A stretch of 63,102 nt of DNA, filler included, from Octopus bimaculoides (lineage: Eukaryota), in NCBI RefSeq assembly GCF_001194135.2. It is 4 parts of 3 records of this genome, joined end to end, with 100 filler letters (N's around TTAATTAATTAA, not from the genome) between each part and the next. Parts side by side here need not be neighbours in the genome. Positions count along the whole stretch, not along the records: positions 1 to 29,399 come from NC_068982.1; positions 29,500 to 51,912 come from NC_069009.1; positions 52,013 to 61,820 come from NC_068982.1; 1 more part is not named here. One strand, given 5' to 3'. Position 1 is the first letter of the stretch. Every line of letters starts with the position of its first letter. The position numbers were made by a program, and so were the translations under genes. The notes under the pieces were generated by a model that was not told where the DNA came from, did no database searches, and was given only the letters and a program-made list of their open reading frames with translations. Positions 5,137 through 61,800 of the stretch are shown here, in pieces.

Positions 5137-5179
5137 GTTGCTGAAGAGGTCACAGAATGTGTGACGAAAGAACTTTGAC
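5137..5179 (+). ncRNA. Minimal type I hammerhead motif in a TMEM181 intron, sense strand
   Basis: GUUG-CUGAAGA-G-GUCACA-GAAUG-UGUGAC-GAAA-G-AA-CUU-UGAC; core intact, perfect 6-bp helix II, 4-bp helix I with two G-U pairs. Confidence 0.7.
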
Positions 5180-5457
5180 AAAAAAGACTAAAATAATAAT
5201 AAAGCTAAAGTGAAGACCAAATATATAGTGCATGTGTTTAATTGGCAAAATATGACCATCCCCAAGTGTAACAATAGGATTTTAAAAAAATTCTCCCTTA
5301 AATTTTATTTTTACTATTATGGGATTTCTTGAACATTAGTATGTACAGTTCTACAATTATAATTGAGATAAATTTTCTGAAGTTATAAAACTGTTGTCAA
5401 TAAAATATACAAAATATTATATTTTATGATTAATTTTTGATTTTATGATTGTTGTAG

Positions 5458-5577
5458 AAATGTGATGACCTAATTTTGATGCACTTGGGATTTTTGGATT
5501 ATTCCAATTATATTATCAGTGTCCGTTTCTTTGGATTAGAAAACGTCAAATACAAATTTGAAAATATTGATTTTCAT
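5458..5577 (+). CDS. TMEM181: TMEM181 coding exon (first one visible in window), phase 0/0: KCDDLILMHLGFLDYSNYIISVRFFGLENVKYKFENIDFH
   Basis: ttgtag acceptor, gtaagt donor, 120-nt open frame resembling vertebrate TMEM181 KCAEIIVAHLGYLNYTQYTVIVGF (recalled, not aligned by tool). Confidence 0.85.
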
Positions 5578-6589
5578 GTAAGTAAACTTAACATTATAGT
5601 ATGACATTGTTATGCTCTTTAATTTTCTTTTCAATTTATTCTAAGAAAAAAATGTATTATATCATTTTTCGTGAGCATGGGGATGCAGTAAACTAGAAAT
5701 CTCTTGATTTCCAGCCAGAATTGTTCCAGTTTGATGCTAAATTCTGGTTATCCAGTGCATTTAGTGGTGTTCACTTCAATATAACTCCACAGTTTTGCTC
5801 TCCTAAATGTTTTTCTCTCAGATTTTAATCCACAGACGTTCAGGTTGGGCATTTGGAACATCAGTTTCATCAACCTGAGAGAAAGACCTGTGAAGGTCAT
5901 GGTCCCTGACTTTCATCTCCTGATGAACATTTTTTTATTCTTTTACTTGTTTCACTCATTGGACTGTGACCATCCTTGGGCACTGTCTTGATCAATTTTA
6001 TACCTGTACTTAATTTATGTCTGGTATTTATTCCTTTGCTGAATTAAGTTGCAGGGGCACAAATCAGTCTACACTGGTTGTTAAATGGATGAAAGGTGTG
6101 AAGGAACAAAAAAAGGGGAATATAGAAGAGGGGGAGGAGCAAGAAACTAGGTGAGTTACTGATGGCAAGAGAGGTGTAGGAGTCCAAAGAGTAGGTTAGA
6201 GTCAGTGTTGACAGGATGGAGAAACTGTTGGGAGAAAACTGAGAGAGAGAAAAACAAGGCTGAGAGTTGGGAAGTAGTGGGTGAGTGCAGGGAGAGCAAT
6301 AAGGGAAAGAGAAGCTGAAAGGTAGAGGGCGATTGAATGTGAATGCAGAGAAAGCATCCTAGGTGAGGTGGCTATGGAGAAAGAAAGTTGAGAGAAAGGG
6401 GTAGGAATGGCAGTGGTTAAATGCAACAAGAGCAGTGAGAGAAAGAAAGAGTGGGTAATGAGATGAAGGCAAGAATAGGTGTGGGTGAGAATGTCTGATG
6501 CAGCCTCTTATATGATGAGAAGGGAATCAGAGTGAAGTAGATGATGTAGTCTGCCCAAGCAGTGGAGAGATGGGGTGGGGACTATGAAA

Positions 6590-7190
6590 GATGAAGTCTT
6601 TGTCGTTCTCTTCTACAGCTTCCACTAACTTGGAGTGCTCAGCACTTTTGTATACAACAATCATCCCCTGTATGCTTCACATACCTGTTCTAGCACAGCC
6701 TCCTTTTTTGTGCACTACATCTGATTCCTCTTATTTCATTTTTGCTCTCTCATGTTCATGTACACTAATAGTATACATCCATTGGATCATGTTGGCTTCA
6801 TTTCATTCTAGTCTTTGCAAGTTTTCTATATTCAATGCCCATATCTCACTACCATGCAACTTCACATTCTATCATGTCATACAATCTGCTCTTCTCACTC
6901 TGAGAGGAAGGTATCTTTGTTAACAGCAATAGTAATAGCTTCCTGAACTTTTTACCAATTTGTCCTTAGCCTGGTGACTAGTTTTTCTGAACAACCATTT
7001 CCCCTGCTAATTATGTATCCTAGGAAACAGAAGTTCTCAACTACTTCTAATGAGCCAACTGAGCATTTAAGAGAATCTATTTCTGGTGTGCTCATTATAT
7101 GTATTGTTTTGGTGCATCTGTCACATACAAAGCTTGCCTTCTCTGTTAGCCTACCATCTCTTGTATGTAATATCTAAGAAAGTTTACTTC
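6590..7190 (-). mobile_element. Older decayed RTE-clade LINE fragment
   Basis: Reverse complement resembles the 1410-2320 copy (aagttcaggaagctattac, agattgtatgacatgatag, gtgctgagcactcc). Confidence 0.7.
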
Positions 7191-8849
7191 CTAACTGCAT
7201 GGTTTCAGTCCAGTCTCATTGCATGGCACTTTGGGCAAATATCTTCTACTGTAGTCCTGAGCCAACCAAAGTCTTTTGAATGGATTTGGTAGATGGAAAT
7301 TGAAAGAAGGTTTACTCACCACATGCTCTTCAGTTCAGGTCCTAAGATTGTATTGTGCTTCTGCAAGTAAGGTTCATTACACTACTTGTATTAGTTTGAC
7401 TGACTGAACAAAGAAATAGGCCCTAAACTCTGCTGTATGTTTGAGTGGACAGTTCACCATACAACTAGTATTTCAGATATAACACATCATCATTTCATCA
7501 TTGTTTAATGTCTGCCTTCCATGCTAGCATGGGTGGGACAGTTTGACAAAAGCTGGCCAGGGAGAAGCCTGCAGCAGACTTCTGTGACTTTTGGCAAGAT
7601 TTTTACAGCTGGATGCCCTTCCTAACACCAACCACTCAGCAGAGAGGACTTAGTGCATTTTATGTGGCACAAGCACAGGCAAGGTCACTTTTGGCAAGGT
7701 TTTTACAGCTGGGTGCCCTTCCAAACACCAACCACTTTACAGTGTGGACAGTGCTTTTAAGTGGCACCTGCACTGACAGGGTCATCAAGTACTTGCATGA
7801 AAAAAAAATCTACACCCAATAACAAGAGGAACATGTATGACAACTGCTTCAAAACCTGTGGCTTCTGTCCTCCTATATCAATAATTACTGGTACTTTTGT
7901 TATGCTGGACTTTTCTCAAGTTCAACTTTTTTACATTTATACCTGATGTTGTAGTTATCCAACACATCATAAATATAAACAAAGTAAATAAGATATATTT
8001 TCTTCTGATTTGTTGGTTGTCTGCTCTTTATATCTGCATGCATCTGCACGATTGTGTGTTTGTTTTTCTTCCCTCCTCTTCTCTTTGTCTCTCTCATTGC
8101 AGCATATGTTTCCTCGTGACACACACACTTTTTAACTATATCTTCCCCATCTCTCTCCAGCTGCTCCTTATATTACTCTTTCACCCCTCTCTTTATTATT
8201 TATATTTTTTTTTCAATTCTTGAATATAGAGCAAATACATTCCTCAATGCACATATTAAGTAAGTAAATAAGATAGAATATGAGTACCTTAATACAAGGT
8301 ATTGGTTTGGATGGAGTTTAAAGAATTAAGAAAAATAAAGATGTCCTTGTGTTATTTTATGCAAAGACATTATCATTAGAGTATCTTAACATTAGTTTGT
8401 TAAAGAATGTGCTCCTCAAATACTTAAAATACTGACATTGTCTCTACTACGTAACTGTTTTATTGTCATTGAGGTAGTGACAGCTGTCTAAGTAGTAAAA
8501 TTCAAGTTAGTCAATACTTCTTAATGTGACATATTTAAATAGGTGCAGATGGGTCAAGTGTGTGTGTGTATGTATGTGAGAGAGAGATTAGATATGCCAG
8601 CACCTTATCCTTCTGCTAATGCACACTCACACACATAATATAAAAGTAAGGTATATATTGATTGATTTATTTATTACATACCCCTAAAGGGACTTCAGTG
8701 TGTTTGTCATATTTTTGACATTACCACTAGCACTACTAGATATAATGTCTATAACCTTACTGTGTCTCCTGCAAGGATTTGAGTTCAGCACTGCAAGCTG
8801 CTGAAACTCTGGTTAGTATTATATGACTGCTGTGAGCTCCATGGCTGCA

Positions 8850-9480
8850 CAGAATCTATTTATGATTTGGTGCAGTGAAATATCGAGACTTCAGTGTTTT
8901 TGCTGGGGACCCAACACAGAACTAGTGGTGGTATAATAGTGTTGACTCTAAAGTCCATTTGGTGTATGCAATGTAAGCTGTGGATGCACAAGAGGTGCAG
9001 CAGAATATCAGCCAGACTAGCAGAGAAAGTGAGCTTCATATGTGACAGTTGCACTGGAGCAACGTGTATTGAGCACAATGGATATAAATTCTGTTAAATG
9101 TCCAGATGGGTCACTAGAAGTAGTCAATAGCTTTTATTATGTAGGAGATATAATTAACTTTGAAAGTATAGTTATTCTGAAAGTATAGTAGCAAGAATAA
9201 GAGTGGGTTGGAAAAAGTTCAGGGAGCTATTACTGCTGCTGCAACAAAGGTCTTTTCCCTCTGAATGAAGAGCAGATTGTATGATGCTTGTGTTACAACT
9301 ACAGTGCTGCATAGTAGTAAGACATGGGTCTTAAATGCAGAGGACTTGATTAGACAATGGGAAAAAATGAAGCTAGCATGCTTGTTAGATGTCCAGTGTA
9401 AGTGTGCATGAACAACAAAGTACAAATATGTTGAGACAAAAATTATGCATAAGTGTATTGAGATATAGTGTGCAAGAAAG
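8850..9480 (+). mobile_element. Decayed RTE-clade LINE fragment including PHD-like finger
   Basis: ORF 8894..9097 CMQCKLWMHKRCS...FICDSC, followed by LEVVNSFYYVGD and ARIRVGWKKFRELL. Confidence 0.8.
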
Positions 9481-9871
9481 AAACCTCACATTTAGTAATC
9501 ACTGAACCGGCAATGTGTCTCCTGCACAGCAAGACATGTTCCTGTCTATCATACTTAAGTCTCTTAATGCCTGGTATGAAGACATCTCCACTCAGCTAAT
9601 GGGGCTTTTTTGTTTTGCAAGTTACTTGTTGACTTCACTTGTGCTGGGGGCCATGAAAAAAAGCACTCAGTATACTCTGTAAAGTGATTGGTATTAGGTG
9701 GGGCATTCAGTTGTATAAACCATGCTAAAACAGATGCAGTCCTCTGGCTCATCAGATCCTGTTGAAGCATCCACTGCATGCCAATATGGGACATGGACTT
9801 TAAATGATGATGATGATGGTGTGTGTATGTGCATATGTATGTATAAATATATATAAATATACACTCATACA

Positions 9872-9902
<31 letters not shown>

Positions 9903-10149
9903 TTATATATTTTCTTTTATATGTTTCAGCCGCAAGGCTGTGGCTAGTGTATGTAGAGAGCGCGGGAGATGTACATATAAAATAATAATGAACTTATTTT
10001 ATACAGTGGTCATTTGCACTACAACTCATCAGAAAAAGTAACCAAAACTGCATGAACTGTGTGTAGACTATGCACAGGAAGTGAACTGTAAATAAGTCTA
10101 CAATGAAGAAAAAAAAAATAGGGGAGGTGGGGCATCAGGTGGAAGTTGT

Positions 10150-10540
10150 GAAGGATGTAGTGTCTCAACAGCCAACAACTAATGCAGGTTGTTTATTCCA
10201 TGTTTCAACAATTCTGAGCATGAAAAAATGTTTCCGAAAGTCATGGGTGCTGTGTTGTTTTTTTATTTTGTAAGCATGTCCATGAGTGTTAGACAAATGG
10301 AATTCAAAAAGGTGCCTAAAGTTGTTGTTGGAAAGATGGTAGATAATATTGTGGGACTCAATCAAGTCAGTTGCCAGGTGTTGGAGCTTTAATGTGTCCA
10401 TGTTCTGGGAAGCAAGACACTCAGAGTATGGTAGATGCCTGACGGCAGGTATTTGTCTGGTTGCATGCTTCTGAATAGTTTCCAGTAGATTGATATGCTG
10501 AGGGAGATAGGGGTTCCAGACTGGTGATGCAAACTCATAT
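10150..10540 (-). mobile_element. CR1/L2-group LINE C-terminal remnant
   Basis: ORF 10165..10557: EFASPVWNPYL..INLLETIQKHATRQIP..RHLPY...NTHGHAYKIKK...RKHFF.LRIVETWNK.P..VV, the typical CR1-like ORF2 end. Confidence 0.85.
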
Positions 10541-10644
10541 ATGTATATATTTTCCATGTATCATTTTTGTTTAATGCAATTTTATTCTCAATCATCCATG
10601 TCCTTTTTCAAGTTTCTTGTCCTCTATTTTTGAATTATTATTGA

Positions 10645-10716
<72 letters not shown>

Positions 10717-10944
10717 ATTCATTCATTCATTCAGCTTTTCCCATTACATCCCTGACTTCTTCACTCATTCATTCACTAAAAAATTGCCAAAGATTCTGGA
10801 AATTTTCAGAAACATTTATGGTCATTGTTTTTTTTTAAGATTGTTTCTATGTGCAATTTGTCATATTGGCATAAGTTACATGGATCTACAGTAGGGTTTG
10901 TGTAACTAAAGTCCAATATGAGAAGCTGATGAGAGATTTCTAGT

Positions 10945-11398: not shown

Positions 11399-11399
11399 G

Positions 11400-12636: not shown

Positions 12637-12699
12637 TGTTTGCTTTTATCGTGTTTTATATGATTTAACCAATATGTCCAATTTTGCTTCTATTTTCAG

Positions 12700-13228: not shown

Positions 13229-13281
<53 letters not shown>

Positions 13282-20953: not shown

Positions 20954-21178
20954 ATATTAGGCTGAAATTCCTGACTGTTTTTATGTTAATAATTCTGGTG
21001 GTTTCTGTGGCAATTACATTCTTACGCTTTGGAGGATCCATGTTGCAAGACAACTTTGTATCTGAGCTGACAACTCGTTACCAGAATTCTGTTGAGTTTG
21101 TCTCTTTTTATGGTCTACTCAACTTTTACCTTTACACAATGGCCTTTGTGTATTCCCCTTCGAAAAATGCTATTTATG
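20954..21178 (+). CDS. TMEM181: TMEM181 exon: (D)IRLKFLTVFMLIILVVSVAITFLRFGGSMLQDNFVSELTTRYQNSVEFVSFYGLLNFYLYTMAFVYSPSKNAIY(E)
   Basis: ttttccag acceptor, gtaag donor, 225 nt; contains the highly conserved FYGLLNFYLYT.AFVYSPSKNA motif. Confidence 0.96.
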
Positions 21179-21699
21179 GTAAGAAAACATATATACTTCC
21201 TTGCATAATTTTTTTTTTTGTGGAGCTTATTGACTTAACTGGGTGCCGTAAAATATAGCTAAGCAATGGGCAAACAAAATCTATGGCTGGCTTTTTAGCT
21301 ATTACAGTTATATCAATATCTTTGGAATAGTATTGCAACCATCCATTTACTTTATATTGAAAATCTTAGATTTCATACCTAGCTTGTGAAGACAGCAGTC
21401 TAATGTTCTACCTTGTTGAGACTATGATTATCATAGTAATCTATTTGTCTCAATCTTCTGGAATTTATGAAACAAAATACCAGCCAAATATTGTAGTCAA
21501 AATTCTGTTATTTCTCTTCCCCAACAGAGATTTGAATAAAAACAAGTTGTGTATGTTGTAATGTGAAATGATGTAATGACTGACATTTTTTTGCACTGTC
21601 TTTTCATTGGGAAACAATTTATTCTAGTCTCCTGCTCAAATTGTTAGTCTCTCTATCCCCTGATCCAGCATTCATGACTTGAATTTTTGAGAGGGTGAT

Positions 21700-22562: not shown

Positions 22563-24082
22563 GTAAGCTTAATCTTGGTTTTTGAAAGAAATTTATCTCC
22601 TCTGTTGCACTCACTTTACTTGAATGGGTTGTCCCACCATTCATTTGATCTTAACCAATCAAAGAAATAATATATTTCTTTGATTGACTGTGTTTAAATG
22701 ACTGATGGACGATTGTGTAATATACATTACGTAATATGCATAACTAAAGTGTTACCATCTGTGTCTGGAAAAATACCTCCGTGTTTTACATATTTGGTAC
22801 ATATATAATCATCATCATTGTTTAACGTCTGCTTTGCATGCTGGCATGGGTTGGATGGTTTGACTGAAAACTCATAAGCTGGGAGGTTGCACCAGGTTCC
22901 AATTTGATTTGCCAAGATTTCTATGGCTGGATGCCCTTCCTAACATCAATCACTCTGAGTGTAGCAGGTGCTTTGTACATGACACCAGCCTGACACTGGC
23001 ATTGACCACGACTATGGTCTCGCTTGGCTTGACAGGTCAACACAAGCATGATATATTGCCAAGGATCTTGGTCACCTGTTGCTGCTTCCATGAGGCCTAA
23101 TGCTTGAATGGTACTTTTTACATGCCATCAGTACGAGTGCCAACCAGACGGCACTGGCAATAGCCACAACTACTATTTCAGATAATAGAATACTGAATAA
23201 GCCAATACTATGTGTAGACATGTAAACACCTTCTTTGTATGTAATATCATCATGGACAGAAAAAGAAAGATTGGCCAAATTAGCTTTAATCCTGTATTAG
23301 GATTTCATCAGTGCTCTCTCCAACTGTCCATGTAAACACATTTGTAACCTACAACTTCAGGGTTTCTCAACATGAACTTCATGAAATATGGTGTTTTAAT
23401 AAAGTTTAATAAGCTTATTAAATAAGCCAAATGCTAGTGCTGGTGGCATGTAAAAAGTACCCACTACACTCTCGGAGTGGTTGGTGTTAGGAAGGGCATC
23501 CAGCTGTAGAAACTTTGCCAGATCAGATTGGAGTCTGGTGTAGCCATCTGGTTTGCCAGTCCCCAGTCAAATCGTCCAACCCATGCTAGCATGGAAAGCG
23601 GACGTTAAATGATGATGATATATATATATGTGTGTGTGTGTTTTTATATGAAAAAATTCTTTCTCTAATACAACTTTTGTTTCATTTAATGTCTTATTGG
23701 AATTGGGGTGGTGGAGGTGACCATTGGTGTTAAACATATGATAGTCTGAATGATACAATGATGCACTAACACACACATTGAGCTAACTTTCATGTAATCA
23801 GTAATAAATTCTCCATCTAAAAAAAAGCAATGGAGATAACTCCAATAAAATCAATGATAAATTTTTTTGAAAATGAGTTGATGTGAATGGAAGTGATTCT
23901 TGTCTTTAAAACCAGCTGGGAGAAGCAATTGACAGGTTTCAATGTTTTTATCTTTTTTTTATACTACTCTCCCTCTGACTGGTTTTTCTCATGTACTTTG
24001 TTCACCTTCTTTATTCAGTAATTTATCTGCCATATTATCGAAGTAGTTATAGTCTAATAGACATTTCTTGTTATTGTTGTAG

Positions 24083-28700: not shown

Positions 28701-29399
28701 ATGTTTTATCACTTGTTGGCTTATTTGTTGTGTGTGTGACATTAATTTGTTTCTTTCACTACTGTTTTTTTTTTTTTGTATATAATTTGTTTCAGATGTA
28801 GCTAAGAAGTTTGCTTCCCAACCATGTTGTCTTGGGTTCAGTCCCACTATACAGCACTTTGGGCAAATGTCTTCTCTTATAAGCCTCGGGCTGACCAAAG
28901 CTTTGAGAGTGGATTTGATAGAAACTGAAAGAAGCTTGTTGTGTGTGTATCTGTGTGGTGTCCCCCCCACTTGCCATGAAGTGCACTCAGTACGCTCTAT
29001 AAAGCAGTTGCCATTAGGAAGGGCATCCAGCTGTAGAAACCATGCCAAAACTAAGACACTGATTTCCTCTGCTCCATTTATTCTCTTGACCTACTCAACC
29101 CATGCCAACCATGGAAAGTGGACATGATGGTGCTGGTCATGATGTTGATACTACACAATACTACAGAATATATCGATAGATTTTAGCCAACAAAGCATGT
29201 AATAGATGTAAGCAACTTGTGGCTATGTGGATAGAAAAAGAAGAATCAGCCAGACTAATTCCAACTGTATTGGGATTTCGTCAGCAACTGAGTAACCTCT
29301 GTCTATCTATAGATAAGTTGTTTATAAACCTGCTATTATTGAACTTAAGTAAACACAAACCCCTTCAGGTAGATGGCCCTGCTCAGTATGTAGAAAAGG

Positions 29400-29841: not shown

Positions 29842-30170
29842 ATAAAACTACCAAATCAAGCAAGTAACAAGATGCATCCCAATTTCTGAGTAGAGTCGTT
29901 GGTTGGATACAAAATCTGACCAATACTAACTCCATAATCCTACAAATTAATTAAAGCTGTTGAATGTTCCATGCTAATTCAGTCATATAACAGCACAGCT
30001 AATGCTTAGATTATCAGTTTGTTTCTGTTAATTCCAGTTTAGTAATGTTCCAAGTTGTCATGTTTCCCATTAATTTCAGTTAAATAATTATCTAAACCCT
30101 CATTAAATGATCAAATATTTTATGCAAATGTCCTAAGCATTCGATTTAGTGTTAAATAAAGAATAAAAAG

Positions 30171-30351
30171 TTTTGAATGGTACAACAGTGCACTATAATA
30201 CAAAAATGGACTATATACCTGTTGTAATTTAGTTATCTATAGTCCGATGATATTTCGGAATACAATTCCTTCTTCAGACTATAGATAACTAAATTACAAC
30301 AGGTATATAGTCCATTTTTCGTATTATAGTGCACTGTTGTACCATTCAAAA
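30171..30351. repeat. 181-nt near-perfect palindrome (74/75-nt arms) with a hammerhead core in the loop on the minus strand
   Basis: Arms 30171-30244 and 30277-30351 are reverse complements apart from one extra base; minus strand 30277 to 30249 reads CUGAAGA-A-GGAAU-UGU-AUUCC-GAAA-U-AUC. Confidence 0.85.
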
Positions 30352-30517
30352 TGTTTTATTTTTTACAGACAATACACAATGCTTCAAGCAAACTACAATA
30401 CTCTCCTAGTATTAAATGTTTCATGCAAATTTGAGTTATATGATTTTTGAAGCATTGAATAAAAACAATATCGACTTTTTTATGTTGATCTGACTTATGT
30501 GATATTTCTAGGCTCTA

Positions 30518-36561: not shown

Positions 36562-37107
36562 TTCCTTTCTACTAAAGGTACAAGGCCTGAGATTTGTGGG
36601 GAAGGGATGAGTCGATTACATCAACCCCAGTGTTCAACTGGTACTTAATTTATCGATCCCCAAAAGGATGAAAGGCAAAGTCAACCTTGGCGGAATTTGA
36701 ACTCAGAACATAGCAATGGGTGAAATACCACTAAGCATTTCGTCCAGTACACTAACAATTCTACCAGCTTGCTGCCTTTATAATATTAGTACAGGGTGGT
36801 CACTAGAAAAGTGGAAAGTTTGTGAAATGCCATTTTATTTTTTCACAAGATCTAAGTATCACAAAGCTTGATATCATATTAACCCGCTGCCTGCCATGAG
36901 TCTCATGGCTGGCTGTTCGTTATATTTAAAGTGAATTGCTTATACACATAGTATATGCAGAGGTGTGTTTAACAATATTTAGAAGTTAAAATTTATCGTT
37001 ATTAGCTCTGGCTAATTCTAGAGGACATTTTACGTCATAAATTGCAGTTTTTGAACTACAAAAATATTTACATTTGATGGATATTTGTCCTCATCTTGTT
37101 TGTTGTT

Positions 37108-37153
37108 AACACAATGTTTTGGCTAATATACCCTCCAGCCTTCATCAGGTGTC
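37108..37153 (-). ncRNA. Hammerhead motif, probably inactive copy (family D, minus copy)
   Basis: GACAC-CUGAUGA-A-GGCUGG-AGGGUAUA-UUAGCC-AAAA-C-AUU-GUGUU; G12 and G16.2 are changed to A. Confidence 0.65.
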
Positions 37154-37460
37154 TTGAGGAAATTTTGAACCTGGGTTCTCATTCCTAAGGTATTTTTCGA
37201 TATTATTATCATTATTATTCAGGTCACTTCCTGGAATTGAACTTGGAATCTTGAAGTGAGCAGCCCGCGTTCTTAACCACTACGCCATATGCCTGTGGGC
37301 TATGGTGTAGTGGTTAAGAGCACGGGCTACTAAACCCAAGATTCCGAGTTTAATTCCAGGCAGTGACCTGAATAATAATAATAATAATAACAATAATAAC
37401 AACAACAACAACATCGAAAAATACCTTAGGAATGAGAACCAAGGTTCGAAATTTCCCCAA

Positions 37461-37506
37461 GACACCTGATGAAGGCTGGAGGGTATACCAGCTGAAATGT
37501 TGTGCT
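37461..37506 (+). ncRNA. Minimal type I hammerhead ribozyme motif (family D, plus copy)
   Basis: GACAC-CUGAUGA-A-GGCUGG-AGGGUAUA-CCAGCU-GAAA-U-GUU-GUGCU; core intact, helix III A-U plus U-G with no loop. Confidence 0.75.
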
Positions 37507-38407
37507 AACAACAAACAAGAGGAAAAGAAATATCCGTCAAATGTAAATAATGTAAATACTGTGCATAATTCCTCTTCTCTTAAATCTAGAACTGTACAAA
37601 AATATTGACTGTTTTGGAAACCATTTTTGTTTTTTTTTGCATTTCCTATGTATATCATTCATTGATATTTCATACACATTCGCATTTGAAAATACAGTTT
37701 CAAAAAAACTAAAATGGTTATTATTGTAATTGAATAGAAAAAGATAAATATGTTTTTTTTCAGCGATCCCTATTTGGGACTTTTCAAAAAATTTATCGTA
37801 ATTTCCAAAATAATTCACATATGAAGAAAATTGAAAGACTATATATTATTTGAACTCCTAAGACACCTGGCAAAGCCAAATAAATATGAATAAAAAAATT
37901 TGGCAGTTAATGAGTTAACACTGACGAATGTTCAAAATGTTTGATAACAGAAACAACCAATCAGAAAACACCTTTCACCACAGCAGATTTCCGCCCCAAC
38001 ATCCGAAACTCAGAGTTTTATTATGGCAACCGAATAATTGTCACATATTATTTTACAGATAAATTCTTATATCTACATAATATCGGGGTCTTTTTTCACG
38101 TCTATTTTGTTGTCATACTATTACTATTAATATATATATATGCAGGGTACAGTGAATATATTGTCTAAATTATGCAAAAATGAAAGTAACACTGACATGT
38201 CATTTTAACAGATAGTTTTACTTCAACATTTAAATTGACCTGTTCAGTGAACAGGTCACGGTTTCAAAGTGACAAAAATATCTTGACAAATTAAATTTAA
38301 ATGTTGAAGTGAAACTAACGGTTTGTGTGTGTTCTTAAATGGCTTACAAACATCTTCCTCAGTCAAATCGTCCAACCCATGCTAGCATGGAAGGCGGATG
38401 TTAAACG

Positions 38408-51912: not shown

Positions 51913-54169
51913 NNNNNNNNNNNNNNNNNNNNNNNNNNNNNNNNNNNNNNNNNNNNTTAATTAATTAANNNNNNNNNNNNNNNNNNNNNNNNNNNNNNNN
52001 NNNNNNNNNNNNTTTTTTTTGTGGTCTTTTAAATTAATTTTAGGTTCACATGGTATTAGCGGTTCAGTTGTTTTTTTTCTGTCCCTTAAACCTTAATAAA
52101 CCCATTATTATAAACTATATAAATCCCATACTAATTCTTTACATTATAAAAATTAAGCTTACCTTTTATGTGTGTTTAAAATAGTATTATTATATATATT
52201 AGCCTAAATTTTTTTAATAATTTTTTTTTTTTTTAATTATTCAAAATAGTTTTCTGAGCCCAATATATATAATAGTCTTAAACTTTACACTACTTCAGGG
52301 TTTTTGTATAAACTAATTACATTTTTATTATTAACAATTTTATTATTAACATACTTCTTATCATTAACATATTAATTAAGCTAATATTGATATCTATAAA
52401 TTTCTCATACTTAGTATATGTAAAACAATACTGATGCTTTATTCAGATTAACGAAAAAGCCCCGTTGACCTATATGCTTAAGGTTTAATTCCCCAACATT
52501 ATGATAGTAGTAAAAAACCCAACCTAAAATAGTGTTGCCACTCTGACCAGAGAAAGCTTTATAACTATATCCATGTATAATGTTTACACCTTCCCTTTCC
52601 TTAGAAGTGATTGCCCCTTATACTATAACCACTAGATAAAAGGCAAAAAAATCAGAGACAGTTAGAATTCTACCTAGAACTAATTACTAGCCTGCTAGCC
52701 TTGGCTATGTCAAGATGGATTTTTATGTAGTCTTCTTCCCACTTGGATTTTAAATGTTGCCACAATTATAATATGTCTAATCTACTGTAATTTTCTACAT
52801 TTTTGTGCAGCTGAAGATTGCTCTACATATTGCATTTAATGTAATGCTCGCATTACTTAAATAAATGGAGTAGCATGAAACGTGCATACTGCAATCATCT
52901 TTAAAATCCGTGTTGCTTATTTTGATTTTTTGATCACCTTGCCTTTAGAATGGTTTTTGGATAATACCATACTATATTCTGGTGCCTAAACATNNNNNNN
53001 NNNNNNNNNNNNNNNNNNNNNNNNNNNNNNNNNNNNNNNNNNNNNNNNNNNNNNNNNNNNNNNNNNNNNNNNNNNNNNNNNNNNNNNNNNNNNNNNNNNN
53101 NNNNNNNNNNNNNNNNNNNNNNNNNNNNNNNNNNNNNNNNNNNNNNNNNNNNNNNNNNNNNNNNNNNNNNNNNNNNNNNNNNNNNNNNNNNNNNNNNNNN
53201 NNNNNNNNNNNNNNNNNNNNNNNNNNNNNNNNNNNNNNNNNNNNNNNNNATATATACCGGAGTAAGCACATGAAATGTGCAACAAGGTGGAAAAAAGAGT
53301 ACTCAAATACCAGAGGTAGAGTAAAATGCTTTCTTTAAAAGCAGTTAGCATCAATTCCTCATAAGTGGGATACTGAACATCTGGTTTAGGTGTATCCATT
53401 GGCATAGATGTGTCTCCTCAGGTGATTACAAGATGTATCCAATTAAAATAACATCTGTTCCACAAAATCTCTCCTTGATACGTGTATACAAAAGCAGCAA
53501 ATTAAGAGATACAGCTTCATTATTATAGAATATCAATGACAAATATCAGATGCGAAAAGAAGTAAATGCACAATAAAGTGAGTAAGTATTAGGTATAACC
53601 AATATGTATGTACAAATGCTCTTGCTTATGTTCTTTGGTGCACATACACTTGCTTGTACAATCTTTCACAAAGATATAAGCATACGCTCATGCATGATTT
53701 AGTGCACATATTCTCATCCAGTGTATTAAATAGATATTCATAAAGTTGGTGCCTAAAAGTGGCTAGTGATACAACTCTGCTTGGTGAGGAGTCACAGAAT
53801 CTGTGGTGAGGTTTACTAGGTCTGGCCGATGTACTTATAACACTTGTAAAATCAGGTAGATAAATCCAGACATAGTAGATGTGTATCTTTTGTATGAACA
53901 GCTCATCAAATAATTTATAGCCTATAGAAAGTATTAATGCCAATGATAAGATTACCAGTGTAGATAAGTGTAGGTATTTTGTGTTTACATCTTGTGGTGA
54001 GTGATACTTATTGAGAAGCTGAAGTTGGTATTTATCTCACATTAATTGGTATACAATGCCAAGGTGTGTAACACAGTTATATTGGTAACTAGTGTGACAT
54101 CATGTTTATAAGAATGGGGAGGTTAATACATCAGTACATTTAAGTAAATTGTGGTTATTAATTTAGTCA

Positions 54170-55015
54170 ATGATTACAAAAAATCATTCTGACTGCATTG
54201 TGCGAAAGTGCATTTATAAGCATGCAAGCATCTTGATAATCTTTTAGAAATCCTATTAATGATCTTCTCGTTGGCCCACATGATAGACAGTGGTTCCTTG
54301 GAGCAGAGTCTTAATCTCCTGGAAAGGATATTGTGTGGTCGTGCATTTCTTATTATGGACCAAGTTAAATCATATTCAATTTTATCTTCCTTATTTTGCC
54401 ACACAAAATCAGCCAAAATGTCAAACGCTTTTTGTTGATTTTCTTGAAGTTGGTGACTGGGTTCTTGAACAATTCAACCCTTAGCCCCAATGTAAACAGA
54501 TGGTCTGCCTGTTGTGTGCACAGTACACTTGTATACAAGATTGGTACTTGTATAGAGGTTCATCAATGGGAATTTTGTTTTTTCTCTGCATGAGCATTTA
54601 TTAAATTTTGGATTTGTGGCAGTGCTGACTTCATTTTCCGACACTGTAACCATGTTGGCTATATCGCTATTATTATTGCTGTCATGATGTGGTTGCAGCA
54701 GGTGGTTTGAATTCTGGATTGTATATCCTTTCTTGTCATTTGCTGTATATATTTGCTGTCATTCCTATTTGTCTGGCCAGAAGTAGTTCTCACATCATAT
54801 GTTTTAGTTGGGTTATTCAACACTTGGTTCATTTTTCTGTTATTAATGTGGTGCATATGCTGCTCTAAATTAATACAGTTAATGTATGATACCTTCACAG
54901 TGTGTCTATCAGAAATGATGTGATATCTATTTGATTTTGAGAAGCATTTGTTAAAAGCAGCCCAAAATTCCCTAGCGATCTTCATTGAAATATGTGAACC
55001 ATGGATTGGGTTGTA
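54170..55015 (-). mobile_element. Penelope-like retroelement remnant, C-terminal GIY-YIG endonuclease region
   Basis: Minus frames: WYNP..., F...F.K.F.KSNRYH.I.DRHTVKVSY..C.N, KCSCREKTKFPL....NLVYKCTV......VYIG, FVWQNKE....Y.LTWSIIRNARP.N....RLRLCSKE.L.I..ANE..IN..S..LSRCLH. Confidence 0.8.
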
Positions 55016-55016
55016 C

Positions 55017-57462
55017 CAGGGCCTGGTTTATAGGGGGTCGAAGAGGTTAAATTGTCCCAGGCTCCTATGGATATAGGGTCCTCCTGTTATGAAGGGTATG
55101 TAGCACTCAATATAGGGAAGCCCCCCCCCCACCTCTCAGCAATCTTGCATGCAGAGGCTCTCCAATTAGCAATATTGTAAAAAATGTAATGGACCCTGTT
55201 TTTTTTATAAATAACCACTTTTAACTACATTAGAGACATTAATTCATTCAATTAAAAAACACTTGCTTCCCATTCGCAAAGCAGCCACAATTCCCATGGG
55301 AATTAATTGTTGTTCCTTTTGGGACATTGACAGAAACAACAAAAGACTCCAAAAGATGTATGTATGTATCTGTGTGTATGTGTGTGTGCGTGTTTGTGTG
55401 TGTATGTGTGTGCACGTGTTTGTGTTTGTGAGATCGAGTATGGATGTATATAAAGATAGATAAAGTGATTGTTAGAAAGAAGTTATCATCTCTAGTTCAA
55501 ATTCCTTCTTTCAATACATGACTGAGCACAGTGGCCTTAGATTGACCTCTGGGCATTAAAGACACACATGCAACCCCCCCCCCCCACACACACACATACA
55601 CAAATAGGCATACATATATATTGCCATTGTAAACTTCATTATTTCTGTGAGGCATTGAAAACTAATCTTATTTTAGGAAAGAGCAAGTAAGTATTGTATA
55701 TGTGTTCCAAAATTTAAATTTTGAATTTAGTTTTTAATTATAAAATTGCATCTCTCAACAGCTGCAAGCCTTTTTTTGTCAGCTTTAGAATTATTGCTTT
55801 TATGCTCACATGTTTTCATTAAACCAAATCTTTTTCTTTCTTTCTTTTTCACTAATTTTCATCATTTTGTCAAGTACTTGAAGTAACTACAGGGAAGTGG
55901 GACAAAATTGGTAATTAGGGCAAAATGAATTATGACCAATTTCTTGTTATTTTCTCGCTACTAGTCTGAAAACATTACATTGCAACTATTATATCACCAT
56001 TTTGTACTCTTGCATTATCATTGGGAGTAAACATCAGCCACCATTGTTGTTGTTGCAGTTGAAGCAGTTTGAAACTGTCAGGTAACAGGTACTTTATTTT
56101 CAAGAAATTTTCCCTCAACTTTGACCCAGTTGTAATTGAGGTTGTTAATAAAATATCGAGACAATTTTGGATGTTCAACAACCCAAATTCTTTCCTCTGT
56201 TGGGTTCCAAACAATTTTTTCCCCACACTAATGTCTAATTTGATAACTTTCAATTTTCAAAAACTGATATCTAAACTGAGGCAAAATGAGTAACGACAAA
56301 TTTCAATAATCTCTTCTTTTTAACTCCATGGTACATAAATGTATCAGGAAGAGAGCCAGGTGGAATTCTGCTTTAAGTACCCCATATAACATCTCATAAC
56401 TTTTCTAGTTTTTGGAATATTCAGAAATTTTTTGTGAATTTGTATTCTACATATGGGAATTCATATAACTTTGTAAAAAAATAGTTTTTGTATCTGATTT
56501 AAGGGCTATTTAGCTGTTATCTTTAGCACATCTCATGACCACCTGATACCCTCCTTGTTTATTTGTCACTCTGACGTATCGATGTTTTTCAATATCTTTC
56601 TCCCCATAAACATGTTTAATGGTCTATTGCTGAGACTGAAGTCAAAATTTAGGACAGTCTCTGTAATTTCAAAAAAAAAATTTGAAAAATTCAAAAAATT
56701 TTTCATAGTTGTATGAATCCTTGTGTGTTTTGAGAATTCCAAAGAAATTAAAAAGTTATGAAGGGCTATATGAGATGCTTAAACCAGAATTCTGCAGAGA
56801 ACCACTCCAGCAGGTTGTGAAGAAGCTATAGAGAATATTTTACATTGATTTTTTTTGATTTAGTTAAATTTTGCTGTCATCTGATTGAGAAACTTTCGGA
56901 ATAGCTGTCACATATATGTTGGAATTTTGCAAATTTTGTCAGAATTTTCCCTTTTTTCCATGCATTGTAAAACAATGAAGAGAAGCCTTTTTAAAACAAT
57001 AGTTTTAAAAATCCATGTCTTTTCAATGTTTGTCTCTTCCCTCACACAAACACACATTCATCATATTTTTGGAACAACAACCACTAAAATGGTATATTTT
57101 TCTTTTTCATAATTTTCTGTCATTTTATCACATTCTACATTCTGAAACATTTGTAACTCACTTCAAAGAAAAAAATCTTACCCCCTCTTCCCTCCTTCAT
57201 TGTACTTTTCACAATAAAGGAAAAGTCAAACACTGCAAATGAATGTGAGAAACAGATTTGAACTTTAAAAAGTGTATCTATAAAGTGACATTTTCAGTCG
57301 TTTATTTAAACATTCTCTGCTACCTTGTCAAATATAATTACATGTGATAGATGGCTTTTGAGATATAAATTTGCTAATTTTCCAAAATTTTAAATCTTGT
57401 GTATGAGGGGACCCACCAAATTTGAAGTATCCCGGTCCCCCTATGGTTTAAACCAGGTCCTG
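55017..57462 (-). mobile_element. Decayed hAT element with transposase dimerisation-domain remnant
   Basis: Termini cagggcctggttta and taaaccaggtcctg are inverted repeats; minus ORF 55975..56253 NIQNCLDILLTTSITTGSKLRENFLKIKYL resembles the hAT C-terminal motif. No TSD seen. Confidence 0.55.
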
Positions 57463-59199
57463 GAGAAAGGGTCTTCAGAGAGGATGACAGGGGACTGAGA
57501 CTTCGTTGGAACCCAACACATCAAGCTAAGTGAAATCATGGTTGTTCTTGCATACAGGCATGTTCCCTGCATCCCTCTTCAACTGAGCATCCCTAATCTT
57601 GCAGACTTGTGGGTACTGGTGCCATGTAAAAATCATCTGTACTGGTGCCACATAAATGCACCCATGCCGATGCTGCATAAACACACCCAGTACACTCTGT
57701 AAAGTGATTGGTGTTAGAAAAGGCATCCAGCCATAGAAACCAGGCCAAAACAGACATGGAACCTGGGCAGCTCTTCAGTTGGCCAGCTCCAGTCAAACTG
57801 TCCAATCTATGCCAGCATGGAAAACAGATGCTAAATGATGGTGACGATTGTTTACCCTGGGTCAGATTCTGTGGTGAGGCTTGGGAATTCAGGAGTTTTG
57901 GCAAATATGCTACCCCTTACTCCATCACTGCTACCAGGTTTGTTCTAACCTGGGTTGGTAGTTATCTTTTAGTTACTCCAGTTATAGATCAAATAGCAGA
58001 AGATGGACCTGTAGCTAAAGTATACAGAACTAGGAGGAGAACTGGCCTTAAACGTGGTTCCTAAAGGCTCACTAGTATGTGAACATGGCCTAATGTCATC
58101 TGAACTGGTTCCCCTACCTTAGATTGAAATGGGCTCTTTGCTTTAACCCTTTAGTATTTAAACCAATCATATGATGGCCAACCAGTCTACCGGTTTTATG
58201 TCCAAACTGGCCATATCTGGCTTCTCACACCTACCCTATGATGTCATTTTAAAAATAAACCATTACATCATCAAAATCTCATAGTTAAAAGTTAGTGCAT
58301 GATTAATTCAAGACAATCTTAATAAACTTTACATTTGATAGAATAATTTGACTACAGACTTGGAACATGAAAACAGAAAAAATTGTTGTGGACTATTAAA
58401 TATAAGGAGCATAAACAGGATGTTCAAAACACATTTCATACCATTTTTATTCTCAGCATAAAATATCTAATCAATGAAACTCTGCAGAAGACAGACTGAG
58501 AAATTGAGTAAAAATCACATATTGTCAATGTATTTGTATCTTGAAAATCTTAGAAGGAAGTCTTTTTTCATTGATAAACGTATGATGTGATACTTAACTG
58601 ATCATCAGTTAATGTAATCTGCTGTCTACACTTGTAGAATAATAAAATTATTTTTATGAGTTTATTAACTTTATTCTGAGAAGTGATTTTAATAAGGTAT
58701 ATTACTTTGTCTCTTTGTTACATTTCTTGAAATAGCATCTTGCACCCCACCCCCATGTATGTGGACACCCAGCACAGAAATGCCAGCACAGAAATGCCAG
58801 CACAGAAATGTCCTTTTTTTTATTGTTATTAGTTGTGTTTCTTATCTCCAGATTATCTCTCTGATAGAGCTGATCCAATGTCAAAGGTATTTCAGCTATG
58901 ACACTATTCTATATCTAGGATGTGGTTCAAGGGAGATTTGACTGCTATTTCTGTTTGTCTTTTTGTGCATACATGTTCATGCAAACACACATAAAATATG
59001 CATTGTGTTTATTTATGTATAACTAAAAACCACACAACAATGCTAAATACACACACTTATGATAGAAGTGAGCAAACAATATTGATATGTTATTTAGTAT
59101 GGTAACTGAGTGCAATCTTGATATTGATAAACCTTTGTGATTAATGCAGGCATGCAAGGCAGACATTAAATGATGATGATATATCATCATTTTATATAT

Positions 59200-59697
59200 A
59201 TAGACCCCTACCTCTACCCCACCCTCAGCCTAACCCACACTCCACCCATGCCTTCCCCACCTCCCAACACCCTCACATCACACCACACCAATACCCTCGC
59301 ATCACACCACGCACACACTACAACTGACCAACTCCTTTCTCCCTTCCCCATTTTCGCATTACATACGTCAAGATCACCAGCATTCTACCTCCCACACACA
59401 GCCCTTCGTTCTTCGATCACCGTTTGTTATCTCCCCCTTTTCTTAGCTCTCCTGAAAAAAGAATTTCTAACTTCCAGTCAGTCATTGTTATGATCAGCCA
59501 TTATTATGATTGACCGTTGACTGAACACTATTCAATATTTTTTCTCCGTGTTTTTCTCCTTGTCTCCGTATTCTTTCTGTTGAAGAGCATAGCTCGAAAC
59601 GTCAAAGACTTTCCGTATTCCCGAGCGTCATACTAATACATCCTTTTGTTATTTACACCACCTGTCCTCGTCTGTTGTTGTTTTTTCGTATATTCTC

Positions 59698-59700
<3 letters not shown>
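59200..59700 (+). mobile_element. Repeat family E copy: C/A-rich body plus hammerhead-like motif at 59572-59608, ending at (TA)n
   Basis: UCUUU-CUGUUGA-A-GAGC-AUA-GCUC-GAAA-C-GUC-AAAGA; homologous inverted copy at 61230-61800. Confidence 0.75.
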
Positions 59701-59733
<33 letters not shown>

Positions 59734-59930
59734 TCACCGGCATACATGATTGCATATGTGTGGATGTGGTGTGTGTATGGGTGTTATTGTTACATGCACT
59801 CACACATGCAGTGACTCAGGAATAAAATTTGCTTAGTGGGTGCAAACCCAGGTCCAAATTTTTTACGAAAAATGTGGATTTTTTCAATTCTAGCATTAAA
59901 ACAAATGCAGGTGTAATAATAATTTTCATA

Positions 59931-60290
59931 TGTATGAGGGTTGGCTGATAAGTTGAGCAAGACATTCTCATGGAATGTGACCAAATGAAGTTAATTTTTT
60001 AATGTAGTTCCTCTTACAGTCCACACATTTCCATAAGAAGTTACACTGCTTGGATCACACTGGTGAAGAAGCTTACCTGTTGGTCAAAATAGTCATCAAC
60101 AGCAGATAAGATGTCATCATCACAGCAATACTGGTGCCCAGCTGAGTTTTTTTCCCTCTTGGGAAACAGATGATAATCAGACGGAACCAAATCACTAACA
60201 CAGGGAGGGTAATCAAGCAGTTCAAAGCCAGTCACATACAGCAGCCATTGAAACTAAGGACTTGTCTGCTGAAACATTGTCCTAATGAAA
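59931..60290 (-). mobile_element. Mariner 3' remnant with right terminal repeat
   Basis: ORF 60041..60235 GFELLDYPPCVSDLVPSDYHLFPK; terminus tatgagggttggctgataagtt at about 59932-59953. Confidence 0.8.
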
Positions 60291-61229
60291 CAAGACTCCA
60301 TTCATCAGTTTTTGCCTTAGCAAGTTGGCATTGAACTTTCCGTTGATGGTGTGATCATTTTGAAGATAGTAAATAAACACAATATTTTTTGCATTAACGT
60401 ATAGTATATGTAATAATGTGAAGTATATTTTATATATCAAAATGTTTAATTTTGGAAATATATCAAGCAAAGCAAACATAAGCAGTAAAAATACAAATAG
60501 TATTTCAAAACGTGGAATGCTACATGACGAAATCAACAAAAAAGGAAGAAAATAGTGGTGCTTGTGTTCCAAAGGTACAATGAGAGGGCTCAGGAGAAGG
60601 ATAGATAGAGGGGATAGAAGGGAAGAAAAGAATGAAAAGTGCAAAGGTAAACTGGAGATCTGAAGTGAGTGCTAGGCAGGAGGTGAAACAGAATATATGT
60701 CTTACCTATGCACTGGTCAAGTAGAAAAAAGATGAGTGATATAAAATTGGGTGGTCTTTTGGTACCAAAAAGTGAAGAAAGAGAGACAGAGTGGAGTAGA
60801 GACGGTTGGGGAAGAGCAAATACAAAGAAAGTGAGAGTGCAGAGAAAAAAAGGGAATAAAGATAGACAGTAGGTATTTAACAGAGATGGACAGAGGAAGA
60901 AATGGAAAGTAGTAAAGAGAGAAAGGCAACAGTTAAGTAGAGAGGCAGATAGAAATAGTCAGGGAAGGTTTTGTGCACAAGAGGGGAGAGAAGAAGGAGA
61001 GAGAAATGGATAGAAAAGAGAGAAAATCTTGCACCAAATATTGAACATTGTGTGAGGTGCTACTGAGTGGGAACAAAAGTGGGGTGTGTGATGTTACAGT
61101 AACTAATAACCATAAAATGTTGCACAGAAAGTACACACACACACACACACACACATACATGTATGTATATATATATATACATGTGTGTGTGTATATAGGG
61201 AGAATTCACAAAAAAAAAAAAAAAAACGA

Positions 61230-61800
61230 AGACAGGTGGTGTAGAAACAGATGTATTAGTATAATACTCGGTAAGTGAAAAAGTCTTTAACGTTTCGAGC
61301 CTACACTCTTCCACAGCAAGGAATACAGAAAGAAACAAAGAAAGAAAAAAAAGAATGTGTAGTGGCTAGCAATCTATCATGGTGAATGCCGGACAGAAGG
61401 GTCACACAGGAGAGCTAGGAAGAAGGGGAGATAATAAAGTAGTAGTGATCCCAAAATGAAGGTGCACGTGTGTAAGAGAGTTCGTATGTGCATGTGAGCA
61501 TGTGAAAGAGGGCTGGTGATCTTGACATGTGCATGTGTATGTGTAGGTGTGAAAATGTGGGGCTGGGAATTGGTCAGTGCATGGTGGTGTGTTGTGATGT
61601 GACATGTTGCATGGTATGGTGTAGTGGTGTGTGGTGTGGTGTGATGGTGTTGGGAGGTGGGAGAGGCGAGAGTGGGGAAAGCAAGGGTGGGGTGTGGGTT
61701 AGGCTGATGGTGGGTTAGAAGTGGGGTATGTAGGTAGGCAGAGGGTAGGGGTAGAGGTGGGGTATGTGGGAGTGGGTGTGAGAGATGGGAAGGATAGGGA
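61230..61800 (-). mobile_element. Repeat family E copy with hammerhead-like motif at 61284-61322
   Basis: Minus strand CUGUGGA-A-GAGU-GUAG-GCUC-GAAA-C-GUU-AAAGA; shares tcagcctaacccacac, gtcaagatcaccagc, tagctctcctg and atactaatacatc with the 59200 copy. Confidence 0.75.

What the first reader, a model, noticed from the sequence alone, without database searches (positions are those of the whole stretch)
5137..61322. A shared hammerhead ribozyme grammar across four unrelated repeat families, plus a Penelope-like element as candidate driver
Seen: six loci (5137+, 30249-30277 minus, 37108 minus, 37461+, 59572+, 61284 minus) show a CUGANGA-type core, one extra purine, a base-paired helix II, GAAA, a helix III with 0-2 loop nucleotides, and an NUH triplet. 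Their helix II, helix I and flanking sequences are unrelated, so they are four families. Established: minimal hammerheads with tiny self-complementary helix III occur in Penelope-like elements and animal non-LTR retrozymes and can cleave as dimers; an extra nucleotide between A9 and G10.1 is tolerated in a viroid hammerhead. Inference: this genome hosts a set of small non-autonomous ribozyme retroelements mobilised by Penelope-like enzymes. I do not know whether these families are already described.
Basis: partly seen in the sequence, partly recalled or inferred. Interest (0 to 1): 0.85.

Follow-up and report, generated by a model that had tools for sequence, protein, structure and literature searches.

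The report
Penelope hammerheads, one on a SINE
These are decayed copies of the tiny hammerhead RNA motif already known from Penelope-like transposons; at one site it sits behind a tRNA-like promoter in two inverted copies, likely a short parasite element copied by Penelope enzymes.

Summary
The six motifs exist and exceed chance: 2 strict matches against 0 in each of 40 shuffles. Only 2 of 6 fit fully.

The 'shared grammar', extra nucleotide included, is the published consensus of Penelope-like element (PLE) minimal hammerheads (PMC4209133), and PLE-driven non-autonomous hammerhead elements are already proposed (bioRxiv 2026).

The PLE at 54177-55066 is a dead Hydra-clade fragment whose clade has a different hammerhead type, so it is probably not the driver.

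The less ordinary part is the pair at 37065-37594. Each copy has a tRNA-like A/B-box head, an AAT microsatellite and the hammerhead; they lie head-to-head. Reads show a very high-copy family with a perfect minimal-hammerhead majority sequence and two 3' ends about 35-40 nt apart, the PLE 'tail'. This is likely a tRNA-headed SINE moved by PLE enzymes. Linkage of the head across the family was not testable.

Family D carries A6U in both copies. No covariation and no cleavage signal were seen.

The parts
5137..5179 (+). Locus A: single decayed minimal hammerhead (core 5141-5147, extra G, 6-bp helix II, GAAA 5166-5169, weak helix I)
   Evidence: passes strict descriptor; no second copy of the motif in the window
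30157..30365 (.). Locus B: long inverted repeat (arms 30157-30247 and 30274-30365, 92 aligned columns, one indel and four mismatches) capped by a hammerhead-like core
30249..30277 (-). Locus B hammerhead-like core: CUGAAGA, extra A, 5-bp helix II, GAAA; NUH/helix I out of register
   Evidence: fails descriptor; partial match
37065..37294 (-). Family C, inverted copy: A box 37287-37277, B box 37242-37234, short AAT repeat, hammerhead, ends near the family's first 3' end, no tail
37108..37153 (-). Hammerhead of the inverted C copy; G12A and G16.2A (both CpG sites), predicted inactive
37297..37370 (+). Family C, forward copy: tRNA-like head, A box 37303-37313, B box 37348-37356 (45 nt start to start)
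   Evidence: no intact tRNA by ARAGORN or Rfam
37371..37412 (+). Internal (AAT)n(AAC)n microsatellite, 24 nt longer than in the inverted copy
37461..37506 (+). Hammerhead of the forward C copy (core 37466-37472, predicted cut after 37501); read-majority letters restore G10.1-C11.1, C15.2-G16.2 and a 5-bp helix I
37555..37594 (+). Optional 3' tail of family C (about 35-40 nt); reads and contigs leave the family at 37551-37562 or at about 37596
   Evidence: tables 2 and 7
59203..59699 (+). Family D copy 1: about 500 bp, CA-rich low-complexity 5' part, (TA)n on both sides; hammerhead 59572-59608 with A6U
61198..61724 (-). Family D copy 2: 3' end abuts TA/CA microsatellite, 5' part runs towards an assembly gap; hammerhead 61284-61322 with A6U and a broken first helix I pair
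54177..55066 (-). Dead Penelope-like element fragment, Hydra clade by motifs: post-thumb WYNP block, CxC linker remnant, endonuclease without internal cysteines, CxH; frameshifts and stops; no RT core detected
   Evidence: compared by eye with PMC8557442 section 11 and File S7

Best explanation
The six sites are decayed copies of the minimal type I hammerhead that marks the ends of Penelope-like retroelements, and the pair at 37065-37594 is likely a tRNA-headed short element copied by Penelope enzymes in trans.

Shown: motif anatomy; A and B boxes plus microsatellite in front of the hammerhead in both C copies; head-to-head orientation; very high family copy number; a majority sequence that forms a perfect minimal hammerhead; two 3' ends about 35-40 nt apart.

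Inferred mechanism: RNA polymerase III would transcribe the roughly 300-nt element from its internal boxes. An autonomous PLE protein (not identified; probably a clade with 1-bp palindromic helix III rather than Hydra) would bind the pseudo-LTR-like 3' part, nick AT-rich DNA on both strands, and start reverse transcription inside the RNA at either of two sites. That would give two inverted copies joined at their 5' ends with the tail on one side only. Self-cleavage would be weak, need a dimer or the protein, and be dispensable for insertion. The window copies are probably dead through CpG decay. A, B and D are probably ends of other PLE-related families; whether autonomous or not is open.
For: Excess over shuffles and decoys.

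Match to the published consensus CUGANGAH / G..C / GAAAN / palindrome / NUH.

Laid reads and contigs: 14,974 and 15,437 contigs in two runs kept as contigs. Majority letters are T at 37488 (94-99%), C at 37493 (68-81%), C at 37498 (55-70%) and T at 37505 (86-91%); all keep or improve pairing. Within 37466-37473 the only listed variable site is the free position N7 (4-31%).

Loose ends cluster at 37551-37562 (mixed AT-rich flanks, or the shared tail: 1,086 reads in X21) and at 37596, matching the 30-40 bp optional tail and inverted 5' copy of PLE insertions. The long end lies about 94 nt after the predicted cut; in the anole PLE reverse transcription starts 85-92 nt after it, both strands are extended, and hammerhead mutants still insert.

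The inverted copy carries the read-majority base at 9 of the 9 sites checked where the forward copy deviates, so the two did not arise by late duplication of an already decayed copy.

D1 lies in (TA)n on both sides, a known PLE target.
Against: The read tool skipped the head and microsatellite, so linkage of the head to the hammerhead rests on this one locus; four other routes found no further copies.

No compensatory pair is visible among the 40 variant rows shown. 58 rows were hidden, and per-position counts cannot show pairing.

No pile-up of read starts or ends at the cut site or elsewhere in two RNA runs; reads come equally from both orientations and 69-71% run on into unlike sequence, which fits read-through in host transcripts rather than discrete Pol III RNA. 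G12A is in 21-24% of RNA reads.

No autonomous partner sharing a 3' end with C or D was found. Four of six sites fail the strict descriptor. Pfam, NCBIfam and PDB gave no GIY-YIG or RT hit for the PLE fragment or its relatives, and the fold model was unusable (pLDDT 48).
Confidence: 0.72

Rival explanations
1. The head is a separate tRNA SINE ending in an AAT repeat. A 5'-truncated PLE end inserted into that microsatellite once, and the composite was then duplicated in inverted form at this locus.
For: PLEs of several clades prefer microsatellites. Head linkage across the family was not read. No other head copy in the window to compare.
Against: The two copies share none of the 9 forward-copy deviations checked. 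Both start at the tRNA-like +1. Their outer ends fall at, or within a few nt of, the family's two natural 3' ends. The head never occurs alone in the window.
Confidence: 0.17
2. Loci A, B and D are simply 5'-truncated 3' ends (pseudo-LTRs) of autonomous PLEs, not non-autonomous families.
For: Most minimal hammerheads occur singly and were read as truncated PLEs. PLEs are 6.8% of the Octopus vulgaris genome in 190 families. D ends in (TA)n.
Against: D1 spans about 500 bp between two (TA)n runs with a low-complexity 5' part and no coding remnant seen. No reads were laid on A, B or D.
Confidence: 0.45
3. They are active non-LTR retrozymes that self-cleave as tandem dimers and spread through circular RNA.
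For: Retrozymes exist in molluscs and derive from PLE ends. Family C is abundant in RNA: 6,152 of 12.9 million and 5,039 of 12.0 million reads.
Against: No tandem array at any of the six sites. C copies are inverted, not tandem. No end pile-up in RNA, and no RNA read among the 15 of 32 joint rows shown supports a back-joint.
Confidence: 0.1
4. Locus B is a hairpin or MITE-like DNA element, or a fold-back duplication, whose loop holds a captured hammerhead fragment.
For: 92-bp arms about 95% identical that extend into the core itself; register defect at helix I.
Against: The 27-nt spacer holds core, extra A, helix II and GAAA in order; decoy cores give such a partial match rarely (680 of 719 gave none). 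Its helix III region resembles the Drosophila Penelope type.
Confidence: 0.4
5. The motifs are chance matches in AT-rich repetitive DNA.
For: Four of six fail the strict descriptor; A is single and has weak helices.
Against: 0 hits in 40 shuffles and a mean of 0.003 for 719 decoys. The family C majority repairs the pairs.
Confidence: 0.03

Closest known systems
Minimal hammerheads of Penelope-like element pseudo-LTRs (Cervera and de la Pena 2014, PMC4209133)
   Same: Core, extra nucleotide after position 9, G10.1-C11.1, palindromic 1-bp helix III, short helix I, several unrelated families per genome, opposite-strand pairs a few hundred bases apart.
   Different: No cephalopod in the supplement file searched. 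No A6U in the alignment rows I read. A tRNA-like head in front of an inverted pair is not described in the text read; a Drosophila willistoni family is labelled 'SINEs' but occurs as tandem 450-bp repeats.
Non-LTR retrozymes (PMC7229834; bioRxiv 10.64898/2026.07.22.740005)
   Same: Non-coding hammerhead elements proposed to use PLE enzymes.
   Different: Defined by tandem units with a hammerhead in each and by circular RNA; none of the six sites is tandem.
Schistosoma SINE-like hammerhead elements (reviewed in PMC6765202)
   Same: Pol III promoter followed by a hammerhead in a short retroposon.
   Different: Propagate as tandem multimers cut by an active ribozyme. Family C has the minimal PLE hammerhead, the PLE tail and an inverted pair.
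Poseidon element of the green anole, PAc (PMC11167929)
   Same: Hammerhead followed by an AC-rich stretch, two 3' ends separated by a tail, AT-rich targets, no read ends at the cut site.
   Different: Autonomous and protein-coding; family C has no ORF and has a tRNA-like head.
Hydra-clade PLEs, including Hydra-1_Obim of Octopus bimaculoides (PMC8557442)
   Same: The remnant at 54177-55066 shares the linker and endonuclease motifs; (TA)n targeting as at D1.
   Different: Hydra hammerheads have a 3-4 bp helix III; the listed Hydra-1_Obim hammerhead matches none of A-D by eye.
Short non-autonomous Penelope elements of Heliconius (PMC6685494) and Chlamys MRC1 (PMC8557442)
   Same: Short elements moved by PLEs.
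   Different: No tRNA-like head mentioned in the passages read.

Membership tests
PLE minimal hammerhead | CUGANGA core, GAAA, UH | tested here: met
   A, C+ and the family C read majority. B has the core but is out of register; C- has G12A.
PLE minimal hammerhead | A at core position 6 (family D) | tested here: not met
   U in 2 of 2 copies; family consensus not obtained (searches found nothing).
PLE minimal hammerhead | One extra nucleotide between 9 and 10.1 | tested here: met
   6 of 6 sites; published hallmark.
PLE minimal hammerhead | G10.1-C11.1 pair | tested here: met
   A, B, C-, D1, D2 directly; C+ is G-U, read majority C 68-81%.
PLE minimal hammerhead | Palindromic positions 15.2-16.2 | tested here: met
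   D1, D2 and family C majority read AACGTT-type; A is not palindromic and B is ambiguous.
PLE minimal hammerhead | Compensatory changes in helices within a family | tested here: inconclusive
   None among 40 shown of 98 variant rows for family C; per-position counts only.
PLE minimal hammerhead | Self-cleavage as dimer or with protein | not testable with these tools
   No read-end pile-up in two RNA runs; the same blank was reported for the active anole element.
PLE-mediated insertion (family C) | Inverted copy joined at the 5' side | tested here: met
   Head-to-head pair joined at 37294-37297.
PLE-mediated insertion (family C) | Optional 30-40 bp tail at one end | tested here: met
   Two end classes in reads and contigs; tail only on the forward copy.
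PLE-mediated insertion (family C) | 3' end shared with an autonomous PLE | not testable with these tools
   No genome held; not shared with the remnant in the window.
tRNA-derived SINE (family C) | A and B boxes at tRNA spacing at the 5' end | tested here: met
   Both copies, 45 nt apart; only 3 such strict pairs in the window.
tRNA-derived SINE (family C) | Head and body occur together at many loci | tested here: inconclusive
   Head skipped by the read tool; only the two copies of this locus seen.
tRNA-derived SINE (family C) | Pol III transcript | not testable with these tools
   The RNA reads look like read-through.
Non-LTR retrozyme | Tandem units each with a hammerhead | tested here: not met
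   No tandem array at the six sites.
Non-LTR retrozyme | Circular RNA | tested here: inconclusive
   No RNA-supported back-joint among 15 of 32 joint rows shown; library not suited.
Hydra-clade PLE (remnant) | CxCX5C linker, endonuclease without the CCHH cysteines, CxxC and CxH motifs | tested here: met
   Linker motif in 12 of 26 relatives (most are partial); the window copy keeps CxC, VY..YIG without cysteines, and CLH. By-eye match to File S7.
Hydra-clade PLE (remnant) | Intact RT-endonuclease ORF | tested here: not met
   Three frames, stops, no RT core hit.

The most novel reading that the evidence does not exclude
Family C is a genome-wide, tRNA-derived Pol III SINE whose partner is a Penelope-like element instead of a LINE: a tRNA head and microsatellite fused to a PLE pseudo-LTR end with its minimal hammerhead, inserted as inverted pairs with the PLE tail, in many thousands of copies in this octopus-like genome. 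Family D may in addition have fixed a catalytically crippling A6U change while still spreading, which would show that the hammerhead fold serves as a protein-recognition signal and not as an enzyme.
Probability: 0.45. Interest if true: 0.65.

Novelty: new variant of a known kind. Interest (0 to 1): 0.42.

Why it matters
The grammar itself is textbook for Penelope-like elements and adds little. Family C matters more. SINEs are normally paired with LINEs through a shared 3' end. A tRNA-headed element with PLE integration signatures would be a SINE-PLE partnership, and my nine literature searches did not find one described with these signatures. It would also give a roughly 300-nt natural template for the reconstituted PLE assay, to ask what the enzyme recognises and whether the hammerhead must cut. 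That role is still open: hammerhead mutants insert normally in vitro (PMC11167929). A high-copy family with A6U would test the same question by evolution.

Tried and rejected
Rfam: no hammerhead or tRNA family among the rows listed (150 of 213 shown; all 12), mostly microsatellite and hairpin matches to miRNA models. ARAGORN: 0 genes. No whole genome held, so no genome-wide descriptor search.

Pattern scans for families C and D: 0 matches in metagenome contigs, viral contigs and prokaryote genomes; blastn against plasmids: none. These collections are not expected to hold animal DNA.

Protein searches with chance open frames across C and D, to see other copies through spurious gene calls: none. 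Word-index search with the PLE fragment: none. Atlas hits under 0.9 were ignored. P0001 and P0004 are low-complexity repeats and were dropped, leaving 26 of 28 relatives.

Fold model of a relative had mean pLDDT 48, so no fold search was run. PDB profile search: none.

No RNA holder was listed for the D region; this says nothing on expression. Four look-ups in earlier findings returned nothing. Lunse et al. 2017 was not held.

Rejected: the in-window PLE as driver; the tandem retrozyme label; chance.
Full report
Setting. The window is AT-rich (33.6% GC, 3,838 N), microsatellite-rich animal DNA. It holds an exon at about 20955-21179 that matches the Wntless-like transmembrane family. The best named relative of its PLE fragment is an Octopus bimaculoides protein, so an octopus is likely; this is inference. 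No whole genome is held.

Observation. A strict type I descriptor finds 2 sites (5141+, 37466+) against 0 in each of 40 shuffles; with one core mismatch it finds 3 (adding 59577+) against a mean of 0.2. Decoy cores on the real window gave 2 hits in 719 trials. The signal is real. The fit is weaker than stated: C- has G12A and a broken helix III, both D copies have U at position 6, D2 has a broken helix I pair, and B is out of register and caps a 92-bp hairpin.

The grammar is published. Cervera and de la Pena 2014 (PMC4209133; main text parts 1-3 of 4, supplement file 2 part 2 of 3 and a term search; file 1 could not be read) give the consensus CUGANGAH, G..C helix II, GAAAN, palindrome, NUH. 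They name the extra nucleotide, G10.1-C11.1 and the palindrome as recurring traits, report many unrelated families per genome and opposite-strand pairs 100-700 bp apart, and find low cleavage only in dimers. Li, Clavereau and Pollet 2026 (10.64898/2026.07.22.740005; parts 1-3 of 5; supplements closed) argue that animal retrozymes are non-autonomous PLE derivatives; 1 of 9 tested dimers cleaved. Craig et al. 2021 (PMC8557442; passages, section 11, supplement parts 1, 2 and 52 of 59) already list a hammerhead in an octopus PLE, Hydra-1_Obim.

The candidate driver. The minus-strand fragment at 54177-55066 has 28 relatives at E<=0.001; 2 were low-complexity repeats and were dropped. tblastn and a profile of the other 26 map a post-thumb block, linker and endonuclease over several frames, and nothing else in the window. 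The motifs fit the Hydra clade: CxCX5C linker, no cysteines between GIY and YIG, CxH (compared by eye with File S7). No profile library confirmed the domain and the fold model was unusable, so this label rests on motifs. The copy is dead. Hydra hammerheads have a 3-4 bp helix III, whereas C and D have the 1-bp palindromic type, so it is an unlikely partner for them.

Family C. The two copies lie head to head and align over their whole length. Each begins with an A box and a B box 45 nt apart; only 3 such strict pairs occur in the window. An AAT microsatellite of unequal length follows, then the hammerhead and an AC-rich stretch. I laid two raw RNA runs and two contig runs on the forward copy at 80% likeness. 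About 15,000 contigs per contig run were laid, so the family is very abundant; the tool's depths are not copy numbers. Majority letters repair the forward copy: T at 37488, C at 37493 (G10.1-C11.1), C at 37498 (C15.2-G16.2, palindromic) and T at 37505 (helix I). Within 37466-37473 the only listed variable site is N7. Several listed variants, G12A among them, are CpG transitions, as expected for decaying copies. 40 of 98 variant rows were shown and none reveals a compensatory pair.

Ends. Of 24 loose-end rows shown (of 796), the 3' ones cluster at 37551-37562, with either mixed AT-rich flanks or a shared continuation, and at 37596; further rows at 37520 reflect this copy's own local changes. 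The family thus has two 3' ends about 35-40 nt apart. The forward copy has the tail; the inverted copy stops a few bases short of the first end. This is the PLE insertion pattern, an inverted 5' copy and an optional 30-40 bp tail. Frangieh et al. 2024 (PMC11167929; parts 1-2 of 4) show why: the enzyme nicks and extends both strands of AT-rich DNA and starts inside the RNA at two sites that bound the tail, 85-92 nt after the hammerhead cut; the ribozyme needs the protein and is dispensable for insertion. The long end of C lies about 94 nt after its predicted cut. The inverted copy has the majority base at 9 of 9 sites checked where the forward copy deviates, so the head was most likely in the template when both were made.

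What is missing for C. The read tool skipped the head and microsatellite, so I could not count how many family copies carry the head; four other routes were blank. RNA reads are frequent (6,152 of 12.9 million; 5,039 of 12.0 million) but come equally in both orientations, mostly run on into unlike flanks, and show no pile-up of ends. That fits read-through in host transcripts and gives no evidence of cleavage or of a Pol III transcript. The same blank was reported for the active anole element.

Families D, A, B. D copies share about 450-500 bp, with a low-complexity 5' part, no coding remnant seen, and (TA)n at the 3' end; D1 has (TA)n on both sides. Both have A6U. A natural A6C variant cuts poorly in Mg and better in Mn (PMC3088659 and PMC7151607, passages). 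I found no A6U hammerhead in the passages read from one search. Whether U6 is the family consensus is untested (blank). A and B are single copies and no reads were laid on them.

Comparison and novelty. The motif, its link to PLEs and the idea of non-autonomous passengers are known. Pol III elements with hammerheads are known in Schistosoma as tandem SINE-like repeats (PMC6765202, passages), and short non-autonomous Penelope elements in butterflies (PMC6685494, passages). A tRNA-headed element with the PLE tail and inverted pairing did not turn up in nine paper searches, most hits seen as listings only. Repbase and Dfam could not be searched. The O. vulgaris annotation lists 900 recently active SINE families and 190 PLE families without ribozyme analysis in the text (PMC13282606, passages and supplement search). 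Ohshima and Okada 1994 on octopus SINEs and Lunse et al. 2017 were seen only as references; either could already cover C. Also seen as passages: PMC7229834, PMC6962438, PMC10886601, PMC4758252.

Verdict. Observation partly confirmed; interpretation partly supported and mostly already in print. The part worth following is family C as a likely PLE-dependent SINE, and the A6U change in D. Interest 0.42.

Noticed in passing
window 23253-23311 (-) and 29228-29284 (-): Possible fifth, older hammerhead family: two copies 75% alike over 59 bp with CUGAYGA, extra A and a helix II, decayed GAAA, and room for a longer Hydra-type helix III. Neither passes the descriptor.
   Followed up: partly
window about 53870-53910 (-): About 270 bp after the stop of the Hydra remnant lies a weak hammerhead-like ruin (UUGAUGA, then AAAA and a 3-bp hairpin before UA). 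Could be that element's own decayed ribozyme; not significant on its own.
   Followed up: no
window 4960-5055 (+) and 4115-4202 (-): Old repeat with a B-box-like motif about 150 bp upstream of locus A, with a second copy nearby (E 0.005); 5060-5140 is weakly self-complementary. Locus A might also follow a tRNA-like head.
   Followed up: partly
window 30157-30365: The hairpin arms of locus B are about 95% identical, much closer than the copies of C or D, so the inversion is young or is being homogenised.
   Followed up: partly
window 37474-37529 and 37498: RNA runs show a strand-switch joint (154 and 132 reads) also present in one contig of run X1, and a 3-nt deletion in helix III in about 9% of RNA reads but 0.1-0.2% of contig depth; probably a few highly transcribed rearranged copies.
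   Followed up: no
window 20955-21179 (+): Coding exon with AG/GT ends matching the Wntless-like transmembrane family; the TMEM181 name is recalled, not from a call.
   Followed up: no
window 39151 (-), 47135 (-), 47282 (+), 32423 (-): Other tRNA-like SINE heads of unrelated families; no hammerhead was found by the descriptor near them.
   Followed up: no
window 10165-10560 (-): 131-aa frame that looks like the C-terminal end of a LINE reverse transcriptase (recalled resemblance; no Pfam hit).
   Followed up: no
P0002: The O. bimaculoides protein annotated as 'GATA zinc finger domain-containing protein 14-like' aligns with Hydra-clade PLE fragments and is probably a misannotated transposon piece.
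   Followed up: no
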